NCBI GenBank assembly: GCA_913046035.1
Contig: CAJWSW010000005.1
Coordinates: 6,667-70,666 of the forward strand
Direction of reading: 5' to 3'
Length of the DNA: 64,000 nucleotides
Source of the DNA: an uncultured Alphaproteobacteria bacterium
GTDB lineage: Bacteria; Pseudomonadota; Alphaproteobacteria; MPNO01; UBA830
Of this stretch, positions 22,208-30,085 are shown piece after piece. The notes under the pieces are model-generated. The model was not told the DNA's origin. It ran no database searches and was given only the letters and a program-made list of their open reading frames with translations. Both the position numbers and the translations under genes were made by a program. How positions within the stretch are numbered: the stretch's first letter is position 1; every line of letters starts with the position of its first letter.

Positions 22208-22828
22208 CTAAACCACCGGTTTCATGATGTGTGCTTGGTAGCCGGGTCTTTGGGAGAGACTTTCAACCCATCTTCTGAGGTTTGGGTAGTCCTCCCGCTC
22301 GATCGGCATATTAAACCAACGCCAGGCGGCGATGCCGAGCGGTATGTCGCCTATGCTGAATTTGTCACCGGCCATGAAGGTATTTTTCTTGAGTGTATCA
22401 TCCATGATGGCCATCTTCGCCGACAACGCGGCGCGACCCAGTTCGATGATTTCCATGTTTCGATTTTCTGGTGCAGTCCTGATCATACCGCGAAAAACAG
22501 GTATCATCGCAGGGCTGACCGTTGTCACTTGCCAGTCCATCCAACGTTCGGCGACTGCTCGGACCTGCAGGTCCTCGGGATACAGACCACCAGGATCGTG
22601 TTTTGCGGCTAAATAACGAACACAAGCATTAGATTCCCAATTTACAAAACCGCTGTCGATGATCACTGGCACAAGGCCGTTAGGGTTTAGTGCTCCAAAC
22701 TCAGGTGTATCGTTGCCACCGAATTCTCCGCCGACATCTTCTCGTTCAAACTCAAGTCCAAGTTCTGCGCAAGCCCAGAGGACCTTCATGACGTTTGAAG
22801 AGGTATCGCGTCCCAAAACTTTAAGCAT
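22208..22828 (-). CDS. Glutathione S-transferase, GstB/YliJ-like
   Basis: GRDTSSNVMKVLW, NPNGLVP, WESNACVRYL, ERWMDWQ. Confidence 0.92.
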   Translation of the reverse strand: MLKVLGRDTSSNVMKVLWACAELGLEFEREDVGGEFGGNDTPEFGALNPNGLVPVIIDSGFVNWESNACVRYLAAKHDPGGLYPEDLQVRAVAERWMDWQVTTVSPAMIPVFRGMIRTAPENRNMEIIELGRAALSAKMAIMDDTLKKNTFMAGDKFSIGDIPLGIAAWRWFNMPIEREDYPNLRRWVESLSQRPGYQAHIMKPVV

Positions 22829-25095: not shown

Positions 25096-26406
25096 CTAGG
25101 CTAACGCTCTATTCAGACCCCAAAGTAAGCCCGCAGTTATTGTAGACGTTAAAAAGACGTAAGCGATGTTTGCCCGTGTAATGAGTTCAAGTGGCGGTAT
25201 TTTGAACATCGTGGCTCCTGTAACGACCGTAAGGCTTGCAATCGAAATTCCGCTACACAAGCCCCAGCCCACCAAAATAGATTGCATAAGGACCAAGTCA
25301 GTTACGCCGGAAGGGACGCTGGTAAATATCACCAGAAGAAATGTGCCGCTTACGATGGAATGTATACCGAACAATCCAGCGAAGTTCATCGTCATGATTA
25401 TGATTAGTATTACTGCCCATGGAGGCAGCGCGAGAGAATTGAGCCAGTTTAGTAATCCCATTTGAGGCAAAGCCGCTTCAAAAACCGCCCCGAGTGTTGT
25501 CGAGCAGACGAGGATAAGCGTCTCAGGTCCGATGCGACCGATTCCATTGCCTGTTTGTATTGCTGCCTTTTTGATGTCGGCCGTTCGGACTGATAATACT
25601 GCTAACACGCAGGGGATCGGCAGCGCCAAGACAAGGGCCTCCAGCGTAGTTAATTCTAACGTGACCGTAGCGCCTACGACGATGAGGGCAGCGATAAAAA
25701 CGGGCAACGCTACCGGCGCCAACGAGGCTAGGGAGCGGCTTAGTGCAATAACCCCGGGTTTACGATCAAACAGCGCGAATGAAATTAGGATTGCTATAAC
25801 AGTCAATAACAATCCGAGTCCCATAATTTGCCAAAGTGGTACCAGCGGAAGGTACTGACTTGCGACGGCCATGCCGACTATAAAAGGTGACCAAAAAGGG
25901 ACCGTCATCATGCCTCTGATAGCGGTGGTAAACACTTCACGTCTTTCGGTAAGTGGCGCATTTCTGCCCAGGATTGGGGCGAGGACAGCAAATACGCCGA
26001 CCTGCAGAATTGCGCCGATTAAATGAGTGCCAATGACGATACCGCTGTCGCGTTCATTTTTAGGCAGTTCACTGAATAGCTGACGCGCGTTGGCGATTTC
26101 AGGGCGTTGGTCTGCGGCTGCGCGAAGCAGTACGATAGTTGCTAAGAAAGCGGGGAAGATTGATGCATTCGCGACTCCATTAGCAATGGCGCGCCATTGG
26201 CCATAACTCTGCGCAACACCAAGCATTGCGACCATTAACAAGCCGCAGAGTATTAGTGTATGTTTCGGCATGCGTGGTAGGCCGACAATGAGAAAGCCTA
26301 TGATGAGCGTAATCATCGTCTCAGTCAGGTAGGGAGCGGTCACCAGAATTCTCGCTACGGCTAGAACCCAAAGCATCGCGATTAAGAGGCTGAGTAGCTT
26401 ATTCAT
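25096..26406 (-). CDS. Multi-pass membrane protein, putative transporter
   Basis: About 11-12 hydrophobic segments and an RG....WSPF motif; its start overlaps the dioxygenase stop (TAATG). Confidence 0.75.
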   Translation of the reverse strand: MNKLLSLLIAMLWVLAVARILVTAPYLTETMITLIIGFLIVGLPRMPKHTLILCGLLMVAMLGVAQSYGQWRAIANGVANASIFPAFLATIVLLRAAADQRPEIANARQLFSELPKNERDSGIVIGTHLIGAILQVGVFAVLAPILGRNAPLTERREVFTTAIRGMMTVPFWSPFIVGMAVASQYLPLVPLWQIMGLGLLLTVIAILISFALFDRKPGVIALSRSLASLAPVALPVFIAALIVVGATVTLELTTLEALVLALPIPCVLAVLSVRTADIKKAAIQTGNGIGRIGPETLILVCSTTLGAVFEAALPQMGLLNWLNSLALPPWAVILIIIMTMNFAGLFGIHSIVSGTFLLVIFTSVPSGVTDLVLMQSILVGWGLCSGISIASLTVVTGATMFKIPPLELITRANIAYVFLTSTITAGLLWGLNRALA

Positions 26407-29127: not shown

Positions 29128-29811
29128 TCAATTTGCCAGTAGAGAGGCAACATAAAATTTGCGGCGTCGCAAACTTTCCTCGAATTCTTTGAGAAACTCT
29201 GGTGCCACTGCGCCAATTACCGTTTCGTTAGAGAGCAAGGCGTCGGCCCATTTTTTGACTTTTGGAAAGTTGTCGAGCAGGCCCGTCCGTAAATACCCAT
29301 CAGCTATAAGGAACCGTTGCAAGAAAGGCGCGTAGGCACAATCAACTAGCGATAGGTTGGGCCCGTTGAAGTAGGGGCCGTCGTTAAGGTCGCGTTGACG
29401 TGTCAGCGCTTCTTCTAGCCGCTCAATCGTTTTCGGTGCCTTGGCCAGCCCGTCTTCCATCTCTTCCCGGGTCTTCGTGTAATAAACACCGTTTAGAGCG
29501 CGCGCAAAACTAGACACGAAGTCGGTCCATGCGCGGTTGCGTGCACGCTCAATAGGATCTTCGGGGTGAAGGCGCGGCGAGACAGTTTCGTCTAGGAATT
29601 CTGCAATGGCATTTGATTCGAATAAGATATCTTCGTCGATTTTCAGCACTGGAACTTTTCCGTGCGGCGAGATCTTGAGAAACCAGTCGGGTTTTTCAAG
29701 AAGATTTATAAATGTGACCTCGAACTCGACGTCTTTGGCGCGCATAGCAATTACCGCGCGCTGGACCCAAGGTCAGGTGAATGAGCTAATCAAATGATAA
29801 CTGGCAGTCAT
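29128..29811 (-). CDS. Selenocysteine-containing omega-like glutathione S-transferase (Sec13 encoded by TGA at 29773-29775)
   Basis: ATG 29811 with an AAGGA RBS. It reads MTASYHLISSFT*PWVQRAVIA and continues in frame into the track ORF MRAKDVEF...KPDWFLKISPHGKVPVL...FESNAIAEFLDE. The TGA sits at the Cys of the CP(W/Y/F)xQR motif. Confidence 0.85.
29731..29766 (-). promoter_or_regulatory. Putative bacterial SECIS element
   Basis: mRNA GUC-CA-GCGCGCG-[GUAAUUGCUA]-UGCGCGC-CAAA-GAC directly 3' of the in-frame UGA; the apical loop starts with G at +19 from the UGA. Confidence 0.65.
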
Positions 29812-29860
29812 AATTCTATCCTTGCTGTTAATTCAAAAACGATAAGGATCGCCAATGCTG

Positions 29861-30085
29861 TCAAATTGAAACCGCAGCGGGTAAATCCTCTTCCAATATA
29901 GAGATATTGAGGGTGTAAGAGACCTCGCCCTCCTCGTCATCCCTGTAAAGAACGCCAATAAACTCATCGGCCATGTACACTTCGATGGGCGCGTCTGGCT
30001 TTTTAGGCTGGAGGATCTTTAAACGATTGTTGGAGAATGTCAGGCGGAGATATTCTTGTACGCGGGTAATCTCGTTTAGCGTCAT
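29861..30085 (-). CDS. DUF3126 family protein
   Basis: 74 aa, YLRLTF.N...EVYMADEFIGVLYRDDEEGEVSY.LNISILE; typical alphaproteobacterial small protein. Confidence 0.85.
   Translation of the reverse strand: MTLNEITRVQEYLRLTFSNNRLKILQPKKPDAPIEVYMADEFIGVLYRDDEEGEVSYTLNISILEEDLPAAVSI

What the first reader, a model, noticed from the sequence alone, without database searches (positions are those of the whole stretch)
29128..29811. Hidden selenoprotein: omega-like GST with UGA at the catalytic cysteine
Seen: the ORF track starts this GST at Met23 (29745), which removes the catalytic motif. Upstream and in frame are an AAGGA RBS, ATG 29811 and MTASYHLISSFT-TGA-PWVQRAVIAM, and the TGA (29773-29775) is the only stop. 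Established: Cys-dependent GSTs (omega, DHAR, LigG-like) carry CP(W/Y/F)xQR at this position, and UGA at a redox Cys position is the hallmark of selenocysteine. Sec-containing GST-like proteins have been predicted in marine metagenomes but, to my knowledge, are barely characterised. Inference: a 227-aa Sec enzyme doing deglutathionylation or thiol transfer, possibly on glutathionylated aromatics given its neighbours (UbiD, TfdA-like, VanA-like). Standard pipelines would call it truncated or a pseudogene.
Basis: partly seen in the sequence, partly recalled or inferred. Interest (0 to 1): 0.88.

Follow-up and report, generated by a model that had tools for sequence, protein, structure and literature searches.

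The report
Selenocysteine glutathione transferase, miscalled as truncated
This gene encodes a glutathione transferase whose catalytic cysteine is replaced by selenocysteine, read from an in-frame UGA; it is real and widespread in uncultured marine and soil bacteria, but the family was first reported in 2005.

Summary
On the minus strand, ATG 29811 behind an AAGGA ribosome-binding site opens a 227-codon GST frame. Its only internal stop is TGA 29773-29775 (codon 13, SSFT-U-PWVQR); ORF callers start at Met23.

The TGA is not an error or decay:
- The same single TGA is found in 25 of 40 relatives.
- It is found in 77 of the best 80 species-level loci.
- More distant orthologues read T-C-PWVQR there.
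- U13 aligns with catalytic Cys32 of human GSTO1.
- The genome has tRNA-Sec, selA, selB and selD.
- In a class sample, 9 of 10 genomes with the TGA form have selA, against 55 of 401 overall.

A GC hairpin starts 11 nt after the UGA. The three codons with the least synonymous variation in the whole gene lie inside it. It shows no compensatory covariation and only partly fits the published bacterial SECIS model.

Public protein sets hold the close relatives as 204-218 aa forms; the five aligned start at Met23.

The kind is known: GST selenoproteins were listed in 2005, 2008 and 2026 but never characterised. The link to neighbouring aromatic-catabolism genes is lineage-specific and weak. Verdict: a genuine new member of a known kind, of moderate-to-low interest.

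The parts
29128..29811 (-). Full coding sequence of the selenoprotein GST. It has 227 codons with Sec at codon 13, and the terminal stop is TGA 29128-29130.
   Evidence: Read-through translation. GST N- and C-terminal domains. AF2 model with pLDDT 90.2 and a GST fold. Orthologues have one TGA at the same codon.
29819..29823 (-). AAGGA ribosome-binding site, 7 nt upstream of the ATG.
   Evidence: Read directly. Purine-rich GGA/GGAG-like stretches lie at a similar distance in relatives.
29809..29811 (-). True start codon, ATG.
   Evidence: In the 35 Sec-form sequences, codons 4-12 keep their amino acids while their third positions vary. Examples are K4 AAG 13/AAA 15, Y5 TAT 16/TAC 18, H6 CAT 15/CAC 20. 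This stretch is therefore under protein-coding selection.
29773..29775 (-). UGA codon 13, read as selenocysteine. It is the catalytic residue in T-U-P-W-V-Q-R.
   Evidence: TGA in all 78 unique Sec-form coding sequences, with TGC or TGT in all 7 Cys forms. It aligns with Cys32 of human GSTO1. It sits between strand 5-10 and helix 14-25 of the model. No other letter was seen in 4 of 4 runs laid.
29738..29761 (-). Candidate SECIS hairpin: GCGCGC, 12 nt (GGUAAUUGCUAU), GCGCGC. The 5' arm starts 11 nt after the UGA.
   Evidence: Hairpin of -12.0 kcal/mol. The six pairs form in 96.8% of cells over 31 distinct sequences. Codons 18-20 inside it have the lowest synonymous entropy of 88 scored codons. 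There is no compensatory covariation.
29743..29745 (-). Met23 ATG, the false start chosen by ORF callers. It overlaps the loop/3'-arm junction of the hairpin: only its G (29743) lies in the 3' arm.
   Evidence: ORF list. The five 205-211 aa database proteins I aligned begin at MRAK.

Best explanation
The gene encodes a 227-residue cytosolic-type GST in which selenocysteine, read from UGA codon 13, replaces the catalytic cysteine of the Cys-dependent GSTs (omega, lambda, DHAR type). Translation starts at ATG 29811. When the ribosome reaches the UGA, SelB carrying Sec-tRNA(Sec) is recruited by a GC-rich hairpin. That hairpin is formed by the codons of helix alpha-1 (Q17-R18-A19 ... R24-A25) and begins 11 nt downstream, so Sec is inserted instead of termination. 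In the enzyme, the selenolate sits at the N-terminus of helix alpha-1, beside the glutathione site. I infer that it attacks a glutathionyl-sulfur (or an oxidant) to give an enzyme Se-SG intermediate, which a second GSH resolves to GSSG. That would be thiol transfer, deglutathionylation or dehydroascorbate-type reduction, probably with some hydroperoxide reduction as well. Shown here: the frame, the conserved UGA, the Sec/Cys pairing, the fold, the Sec machinery and an RNA-level constraint downstream of the UGA. Inferred: actual Sec insertion, the Se-SG chemistry and the substrate, which is unknown.
For: 1. Conservation of the UGA.
- One in-frame TGA at the same codon in own plus 25 of 40 relatives, at 67-83% identity, in two families.
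- Seen in 10 of 401 genomes of an even class sample, including own.
- Seen in 77 of the best 80 loci, out of 520 relatives found in species-representative genomes.
- The Sec forms are as little as 53% identical to each other.

2. Sec/Cys pair.
- The more distant orthologues and three nested ones read T-C-PWVQR.
- Nine full-length database proteins also have Cys there.

3. Catalytic position.
- U13 aligns with Cys32 of human GSTO1 (E 4.7e-23). The VP and ES glutathione-site motifs align as well.
- In the model (pLDDT 90.2) it lies between beta-1 and alpha-1.
- Foldseek finds tau, omega and DHAR GSTs at TM 0.73-0.80.

4. Sec machinery in the genome.
- tRNA-Sec scores 76.4 bits, and ARAGORN calls SeC with anticodon tca.
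- selA 574 bits, selB 426 bits, selD 307 bits.
- In the class sample selA is in 55 of 401 genomes but in 9 of the 10 with the TGA form. Fisher p is 8e-8, but kin are not independent.

5. RNA-level constraint.
- Codons 18, 19 and 20 (CGC 94%, GCC 90%, GTG 90%) are the three lowest in synonymous entropy of 88 scored 4/6-fold codons.
- Cys forms with the same residues use other codons: CGT/CGA/CGG, GCG, GTC.

6. The region upstream of the UGA evolves as coding sequence.

7. Two further genes in this genome carry an in-frame TGA at a redox Cys position. One has a 6-bp hairpin with loop CGUGAUC, which matches the consensus CGUGAUY following the 5' arm in the GST genes.

8. No other letter at the TGA in three RNA-library runs and one DNA run from three studies.
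Against: - No compensatory covariation: 0 of 6 stem pairs change on both sides, and all 500 of 500 shuffles reach the observed values. The stem is made of conserved Q-R-A and R-A codons, so the pairing could partly be a by-product of the protein sequence.
- Three of the first four Cys forms also fold a GC hairpin there.
- The hairpin fits the published bacterial SECIS model only in part. Read simply, its apical loop is 12 nt, against 3-9 in the model.
- The window's own hairpin is not more stable than shuffles (z -1.21; z -1.77 for 66 nt).
- The window's own loop (GGUAAUU) departs from the consensus (CGUGAUY) at two positions.
- Rfam has no match.
- One genome with the TGA form, G051 (77% complete), showed no selA. 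So did G006 (60% complete).
- Nothing here shows selenium in the protein, and no activity was measured.
Confidence: 0.87

Rival explanations
1. Same selenoprotein, different main job. The Sec-GST is chiefly a glutathione-dependent hydroperoxide reductase, a natural GPx-like enzyme on a GST scaffold, rather than an omega-type thiol transferase or deglutathionylase.
For: - Engineered GSTs with Sec at the catalytic Ser or Cys position gain high GPx activity. A soybean tau GST with Ser13 changed to Sec gained 177-fold in kcat and reduced H2O2 (abstract of PMC10812501). A review describes theta, zeta and Lucilia seleno-GSTs (passages of PMC9944854).
- The top Foldseek matches of the model are soybean tau GSTs.
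- There is no conserved operon partner that would point to a specific conjugate substrate.
Against: - The Cys orthologues keep the C-P-W-x-Q-R motif of Cys-GSTs, whose known chemistry is thiol transfer and deglutathionylation (alignment to GSTO1, TDR1 and DHAR).
- Sec usually speeds the same reaction as the Cys form.
- The genome already has Prx-like candidates with Sec.
- No activity data exist.
Confidence: 0.3
2. The UGA is an ordinary stop. The functional product starts at Met23 (205 aa), as pipelines annotate it, and the 12 upstream codons are a leader peptide or untranslated.
For: - ORF callers give this form.
- The most similar public proteins are held as 204-218 aa forms covering 89-93% of the read-through protein; the five I aligned start at Met23.
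Against: - Met23 lies in the middle of helix alpha-1. A start there removes strand beta-1 and the catalytic residue.
- The 12 upstream codons are conserved as amino acids, with free synonymous change, across sequences as little as 53% identical.
- The RBS precedes ATG 29811, not Met23.
- Cys orthologues are full-length and colinear.
- In 31 of 78 Sec forms codon 23 is Leu (TTG, CTG or CTT), not Met.
Confidence: 0.03
3. The TGA is a sequencing or assembly error, or a private nonsense mutation in a decaying pseudogene.
For: The genome is a 127-contig draft, 91% complete with 4% contamination.
Against: - The same TGA is in 25 relatives, and in 77 of the best 80 loci.
- No other letter at the site in 4 of 4 runs laid, from 3 studies.
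- The rest of the frame is intact and conserved.
Confidence: 0.01
4. The UGA is recoded, but to something other than Sec. Possibilities are Cys delivered by a SelB-dependent tRNA, or Trp by near-cognate read-through.
For: The methods used here cannot tell which residue is inserted. From recall, not seen in a call: SelC-like tRNAs that carry Cys have been proposed in some bacteria.
Against: - selA and selD, needed only to make Sec, are both present and intact.
- The tRNA is called tRNA-SeC by two programs.
- TGA otherwise acts as a stop here. The long selA, selB and selD frames carry none.
Confidence: 0.04

Closest known systems
GST / GST-like bacterial selenoprotein family. Sources: Zhang, Fomenko and Gladyshev 2005, Sargasso Sea, PMC1088965; Zhang and Gladyshev 2008, GOS, PMC2398784; 2026 review PMC13188914.
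   Same: - A bacterial GST-domain protein with an in-frame UGA and many Cys homologues, found in marine metagenomes.
- The 2026 review gives PF13409 as its domain, which is also the best Pfam hit here.
- It is predicted only by bioinformatics and its function is uncharacterised.
   Different: - I could not see any published member's sequence, because supplements are closed and figures are not held. Identity with this orthologous group is therefore likely but not shown.
- The papers list 4 sequences (2005) and 12 sequences (2008).
- Here the Sec form is the norm of a large group, 77 of the best 80 species-level loci. The SECIS position, codon constraint and nested Cys forms are also described.
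Omega-class GST (human GSTO1-1, PDB 1eem) and kin: Leishmania TDR1 (4ags), plant DHAR and lambda GSTs.
   Same: - Same fold.
- The catalytic residue lies at the start of helix alpha-1, followed by Pro and an aromatic residue. U13 aligns with Cys32 of GSTO1.
- The VP and ES glutathione-site motifs align.
   Different: - Sec replaces Cys.
- Sequence identity is only about 24-30%.
- There is no omega-type N-terminal extension. The alignment starts at query residue 6 and GSTO1 residue 24-25.
- No NCBIfam model reaches its cut-off.
Engineered seleno-GSTs, with Sec placed at the catalytic Ser or Cys of tau, theta, zeta or Lucilia GSTs.
   Same: - Sec at the residue that faces the glutathione thiol in a GST G-site.
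- The tau scaffold used for SeSh14 (Ser13 to Sec) is among the top structural matches here.
   Different: Those enzymes are made chemically or in auxotrophs and were selected for peroxidase activity. This one is genetically encoded through UGA and a SECIS, and its activity is unknown.

Membership tests
Bacterial selenoprotein gene (UGA read as Sec) | In-frame UGA aligned with Cys in homologues (Sec/Cys pair) | tested here: met
   TGA in 78 unique coding sequences and TGC/TGT in 7 at the same codon. Nine full-length database proteins have Cys there.
Bacterial selenoprotein gene (UGA read as Sec) | UGA conserved among orthologues of different lineages | tested here: met
   Present in 25 of 40 relatives in two families, 10 of 401 genomes in the class sample, and 77 of the best 80 loci.
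Bacterial selenoprotein gene (UGA read as Sec) | selA, selB, selC and selD in the genome | tested here: met
   selA overlaps the start of selB by 4 nt, and tRNA-Sec lies 68 nt after the selB stop. selD is fused to a Pyr_redox_2 domain.
Bacterial selenoprotein gene (UGA read as Sec) | SECIS fitting the published bacterial model, as given in the Fig. 2 legend of PMC13188914: 3-9 nt apical loop, 4-16 bp stem, G in the first two loop positions, 16-37 nt from UGA to loop, MFE at most -7.5 kcal/mol | tested here: inconclusive
   Criteria met:
- Spacing is 17 nt.
- The stem has 6 GC pairs.
- The second loop base is G, followed by U.
- MFE is -12.0 kcal/mol.

Not met:
- Read simply, the loop is 12 nt.
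- Alternative folds with smaller loops lose the G rule.

Other evidence:
- Synonymous constraint supports an RNA element.
- Covariation is absent.
Bacterial selenoprotein gene (UGA read as Sec) | Selenium shown in the protein | not testable with these tools
   This needs 75Se labelling or mass spectrometry.
Cys-dependent GSTs (omega / lambda / DHAR type) | GST fold: thioredoxin-like N-domain plus helical C-domain | tested here: met
   Pfam GST_N_2, GST_N_3 and GST_C_2. AF2 pLDDT 90.2. Foldseek TM 0.73-0.80 to tau, omega and DHAR GSTs.
Cys-dependent GSTs (omega / lambda / DHAR type) | Catalytic Cys at the N-terminus of helix alpha-1 in a C-P-aromatic motif | tested here: met
   The position is occupied by Sec in U-P-W and is aligned with Cys32 of GSTO1 and with the C-P-F of TDR1.
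Omega class in the strict sense | N-terminal extension of about 20 residues before beta-1. This class trait is recalled, not taken from a call. | tested here: not met
   Strand beta-1 starts at residue 5. The alignment pairs query residue 6 with GSTO1 residue 24-25. The protein is therefore 'omega-like', not a member of the omega class.
Cys-dependent GSTs (omega / lambda / DHAR type) | Thiol transferase, dehydroascorbate reductase or deglutathionylation activity | not testable with these tools
   This needs an enzyme assay.
Published GST-like selenoprotein family (2005, 2008, 2026) | Sequence likeness to a published member | not testable with these tools
   Only the table rows were visible. 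Supplements are closed and no sequence is held. The domain label matches (PF13409 / COG0625).

The most novel reading that the evidence does not exclude
This group is nature's own seleno-GST, a GPx-like glutathione hydroperoxidase that arose on a GST scaffold. It would mirror what enzyme engineers built by hand. In this orthologous group the Sec form is the rule (77 of the best 80 species-level loci). It seems to have arisen once, then reverted to Cys at least twice and moved into some Pseudomonadales. Its SECIS is carved out of the codons of the catalytic helix. If so, a common antioxidant enzyme of uncultured marine and soil Alphaproteobacteria is missing its active site in essentially every automatic annotation.
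Probability: 0.25. Interest if true: 0.55.

Novelty: new member of a known kind. Interest (0 to 1): 0.32.

Why it matters
- Annotation. The closest public copies are held as 204-218 aa proteins covering 89-93% of the read-through protein, and the five I aligned lack strand beta-1 and the catalytic residue. Function calls and structure models built on them are therefore wrong. No NCBIfam model reaches its cut-off.
- Biology. The family has been listed as a selenoprotein for twenty years without any biochemical study. This report provides a well-supported set of 78 distinct Sec-form genes, with 7 Cys counterparts, on which to test why Sec is kept at a GST active site.
- Limits. It does not change what is known about selenoproteins or GSTs.

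Tried and rejected
- Rfam search of 29500-29900 at E up to 10 gave only a chance lncRNA match. No bacterial SECIS family matched.
- Covariation test of the 6-bp stem found 0 pairs with changes on both sides, and all 500 of 500 shuffles reached the observed values. RNAalifold gave a covariation term of -0.03. The structure is therefore not supported by covariation.
- Stability against shuffles is weak for the window's own hairpin (z -1.77, z -1.21). A relative's hairpin gave z -2.62.
- Gene neighbours as a guide to substrate did not hold up:
  - DUF3126 (same strand, 50 nt upstream), a VanA-like Rieske oxygenase and UbiD are real.
  - They accompany the gene only in the window's own family: DUF3126 in 21 of 39 loci and in 19 of 80.
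  - The largest cluster of flanking frames covers 18 of 80 loci.
  - Other lineages have other neighbours (cupin, DUF1761).
- I looked for further selenoproteins by family:
  - Formate dehydrogenase alpha gave 12 matches, none with a stop and none over the cut-off.
  - CMD gave 7 matches and none with a stop.
  - Rdx gave no match.
  - Thioredoxin gave 5 matches and none with a stop.
  - GST_N_2 gave 24 matches and none with a stop. The match to this gene begins after the TGA, so this method misses N-terminal Sec.
  - AhpC-TSA gave two frames with one TGA each.
- The careful tree did not finish in 288 s. Only the quick tree, with a midpoint root, was used.
- My motif filter parsed 107 of 119 loci. 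Twelve were dropped before the codon counts.
- Supplements of the 2005 and 2008 papers, which should hold the published GST selenoprotein sequences, could not be seen.
- BSepDB (PMC13326102) and deep-Sep (PMC12013277) do not name GST in their main text. Their tables of families are in supplements.

Full report
**Observation.** On the minus strand the window reads AAGGA (29823-29819), seven bases, ATG (29811-29809). Twelve codons follow (MTASYHLISSFT), then TGA (29775-29773), and the frame continues PWVQRAVIAMRAK... to a terminal TGA at 29130-29128. The mechanical ORF list starts the frame at Met23, 29745, giving 205 aa. Read through, the frame is a complete GST: GST_N_2 2.8e-18, GST_N_3 1.3e-16, GST_C_2 2e-10. 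No NCBIfam model reaches its cut-off; the best is maiA at 56.8 bits against a cut-off of 171. Every sequence fact in the finding is correct.

**Is the TGA real and conserved?**
- A six-frame search of the window's genome and 40 relatives matched 35 of 41 genomes at E <= 1e-20.
- In own plus 25 relatives the match (67-83% identity for the relatives) contains exactly one stop, a TGA. This covers 20 genomes of the window's family and all 5 of a second family.
- The matches at 53% identity or less contain none.
- Cutting the loci out shows the TGA always at codon 13 in T-U-PWVQR. The distant ones read T-C-PWVQR.
- In an even sample of 401 genomes of the class, 12 have a match at E <= 1e-50, and 10 of these (own included) carry the single TGA.
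- A pattern scan of one genome per species found 520 stretches encoding a relative. Of the best 80, 77 have TGA, 2 have TGC and 1 has TGT at that codon.
- Their titles are uncultured Alphaproteobacteria, Rhodospirillaceae, Defluviicoccus, Methyloligellaceae and a few Pseudomonadales MAGs.
- After removing duplicates I had 78 distinct Sec-form and 7 Cys-form coding sequences. My filter parsed 107 of 119 loci; 12 were dropped.
- The Sec forms are as little as 53% identical to one another, with a median of 66%.
- The window's DNA occurs in marine metagenomes of 12 studies. In three RNA-library runs and one DNA run (three studies), contigs cover the TGA, Met23 and the ATG with no other letter at the TGA.
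- RNA-library contigs do not prove transcription. Even so, a sequencing error or a private nonsense mutation is excluded.

**Is the part before the TGA translated?** In the 35 Sec-form sequences first collected, codons 4-12 keep their amino acids while third positions vary freely. Examples are K4 AAG 13/AAA 15, Y5 TAT 16/TAC 18, H6 CAT 15/CAC 20, and four codons each for L7, S10 and T12. That is the signature of a coding frame. In 31 of the 78 Sec forms codon 23 is Leu rather than Met, so Met23 cannot be the general start.

**What residue does the TGA stand for?**
- Against solved structures the best matches are Leishmania TDR1 (2.8e-24) and human GSTO1 (4.7e-23), then DHAR, lambda and tau GSTs.
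- In the printed alignment U13 pairs with Cys32 of GSTO1, and the G-site motifs (V-P and E-S) align as well.
- An AlphaFold2 model has pLDDT 90.2 and pTM 0.88, with C in place of U. It puts residue 13 between strand 5-10 and helix 14-25, the active-site position of the thioredoxin fold.
- Foldseek returns tau, omega and DHAR GSTs at TM 0.73-0.80.
- The protein lacks the N-terminal extension of omega GSTs (query residue 6 pairs with GSTO1 residue 24-25). It is omega-like, not omega class.

**Machinery.**
- The genome (2.78 Mb, 127 contigs, 91% complete) has tRNA-Sec at 76.4 bits against a cut-off of 47. ARAGORN calls it tRNA-SeC with anticodon tca.
- It also has selA at 574 bits, selB at 426 bits and selD at 307 bits.
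- selA, selB and tRNA-Sec are contiguous. selD is fused to a pyridine nucleotide-disulphide oxidoreductase domain.
- In the class sample selA is in 55 of 401 genomes but in 9 of the 10 that carry the TGA form. The exception is 77% complete. Fisher p is 8e-8, though kin are not independent.
- Among the 40 relatives, selA is over its cut-off in 39 of 41 genomes, own included. It is present in Cys-form genomes too, so there it does not discriminate.
- Two further frames in this genome carry one in-frame TGA at a redox Cys position. Both are Prx-like...TPG-U-T... and ...HW-U-PYC.... The Sec trait therefore seems to be in use. I did not test these two for conservation.

**The RNA element.**
- Eleven bases after the UGA comes GCGCGC, then twelve bases, then GCG(C/U)GC.
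- Over 31 distinct sequences the six pairs form in 96.8% of cells. One pair switches from G-C to G-U in 10 sequences.
- There is no change on both sides of any pair, and the shuffles equal the observed values. Covariation gives no support.
- The stem is built from the codons of Q17-R18-A19 and R24-A25, so amino-acid conservation could explain part of it.
- The better test is synonymous variation. Of 88 conserved four- or six-fold degenerate codons in the 78 Sec forms, the three with the lowest codon entropy are 18, 19 and 20 (CGC 94%, GCC 90%, GTG 90%). R24 uses only CGC or CGT in 76 of 78.
- That the three lowest all fall in this short stretch has a chance below 1e-3 (computed generously for nine codons).
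- Other Arg, Ala and Val codons of the same gene vary freely.
- Cys forms with the same residues use CGT, CGA, CGG, GCG and GTC there.
- Variants from Pseudomonadales MAGs lose lower pairs but, by my reading of the sequences, gain two upper pairs.
- Against the published bacterial SECIS model (Fig. 2 legend of PMC13188914), the spacing (17 nt), stem, energy (-12.0 kcal/mol) and G-U early in the loop fit. The 12-nt loop does not.
- One of the Prx-like frames has a model-conforming hairpin whose 7-nt loop, CGUGAUC, equals the consensus CGUGAUY that follows the 5' arm in the GST genes. I take this as a hint at what this lineage's SelB reads.
- The window's own copy has GGUAAUU at that place. It is the only one of 78 with GTA at codon 20 and one of 5 with GCG at codon 19.

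**Annotation.** Among 6980 database proteins at E <= 1e-10, the listed ones at 70% identity or more are 204-218 aa and cover 89-93% of the query. The full-length ones (224-255 aa) are at most 69% identical. Five short ones aligned start at MRAK (Met23), and nine long ones have Cys at position 13.

**History.** A quick maximum-likelihood tree (midpoint root; the careful search was unfinished) separates four distant Cys forms from a clade of 78 Sec and 3 Cys forms with 100% support. It needs three changes of state, at least two of them forced by well-supported branches. It also nests three Pseudomonadales-type sequences among alphaproteobacterial ones. One gain of Sec with later reversions and a transfer is the simplest reading, but the root is not established.

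**Function.**
- No neighbour is conserved beyond single lineages. The aromatic-catabolism context of the window (TauD/TfdA-like, UbiD, VanA-like) therefore says little.
- From the Sec/Cys pairing with Cys-GSTs, I infer glutathione-dependent thiol transfer or deglutathionylation through an enzyme Se-SG intermediate.
- Engineered GSTs with Sec at the same position become efficient glutathione peroxidases (abstract of PMC10812501; passages of PMC9944854). A hydroperoxidase role is thus a serious alternative.

**What is known.**
- 'Glutathione S-transferase' is listed among new selenoprotein families of the Sargasso Sea, with 4 sequences and COG0625 (tables of PMC1088965).
- It is listed among GOS selenoproteins with 12 sequences (table of PMC2398784).
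- It appears as 'GST-like protein, PF13409' in a 2026 review, which says such families remain functionally uncharacterised (passages of PMC13188914).
- A full-text search for selenocysteine, glutathione transferase, omega and bacterial SECIS found no study of such an enzyme among the 15 papers listed of 50 hits.
- I saw no published sequence, so identity with this group is probable but unproven.

**Verdict.** This is a genuine, conserved, mis-annotated selenoprotein GST. It is a new member of a known but unstudied kind.

Noticed in passing
G000:C1:42303-42665 (-) and G000:C17:15587-15952 (-), outside the window: Two AhpC-TSA (Prx-like) frames each hold one in-frame TGA at a redox Cys position...YPKADTPG-U-TIEG... 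and ...FYRGHW-U-PYCRRQ... They are probably further selenoproteins of this genome. The second lies about 9 kb from the selA-selB-selC cluster.
   Followed up: partly
G000:C1, downstream of the TGA in the Prx-like frame: The hairpin after this TGA has a 6-bp stem and a 7-nt loop, CGUGAUC. That is the same string as the consensus CGUGAUY that follows the 5' stem arm in 71 of 78 Sec-GST genes. It may be the loop motif read by this lineage's SelB.
   Followed up: partly
window 29738-29761 (-): The window's own hairpin loop (GGUAAUU..., codons GCG GTA) departs from the family consensus (GCC GTG) at two strongly conserved synonymous sites. Its protein is also 5-6 residues shorter at the C-terminus than its nearest relatives (227 against 229-240 aa). 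Four runs laid showed the same letters.
   Followed up: partly
G000:C26:24338-26671 (L018:196-2529, +): selD is the C-terminal part of a 777-aa frame. Its N-terminal part is a pyridine nucleotide-disulphide oxidoreductase domain, Pyr_redox_2 at 7.2e-27. From recall, such fusions have been described.
   Followed up: partly
G000:C17:24612-28100 (L010): selA overlaps the start of selB by 4 nt, and tRNA-Sec lies 68 nt after the selB stop on the same strand. It is therefore adjacent to selB, not nested inside it as reported for some Alphaproteobacteria in a passage of PMC13188914.
   Followed up: partly
window 29861-30085 (-): A 74-aa DUF3126 gene sits 50 nt upstream on the same strand. It keeps that place in 21 of 39 loci with enough flank and in 19 of 80 loci, all from the window's own family, and nowhere else.
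   Followed up: yes
L132, L137, L139 (Pseudomonadales and Proteobacteria MAG records): Sec-GST genes from gammaproteobacterial MAGs nest among alphaproteobacterial ones in the quick tree. They also carry a differently paired hairpin (Leu23 CTG; codons 18-20 CGT/CGA/CGC, GCG/GCA, GTC/GTT). This suggests horizontal transfer with a remodelled SECIS.
   Followed up: partly
whole genome G000: There are 24 GST_N_2 matches, 23 over the cut-off, in a 2.78-Mb genome, which is many GST paralogues for its size. One more lies in the window, at about 22604-22804 (-), converted from C5:29270-29470.
   Followed up: no
window 25096-26406 (-): A 436-aa ORF between the luciferase-like monooxygenase and the TauD-like dioxygenase has no Pfam match at E <= 1e-5.
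   Followed up: no
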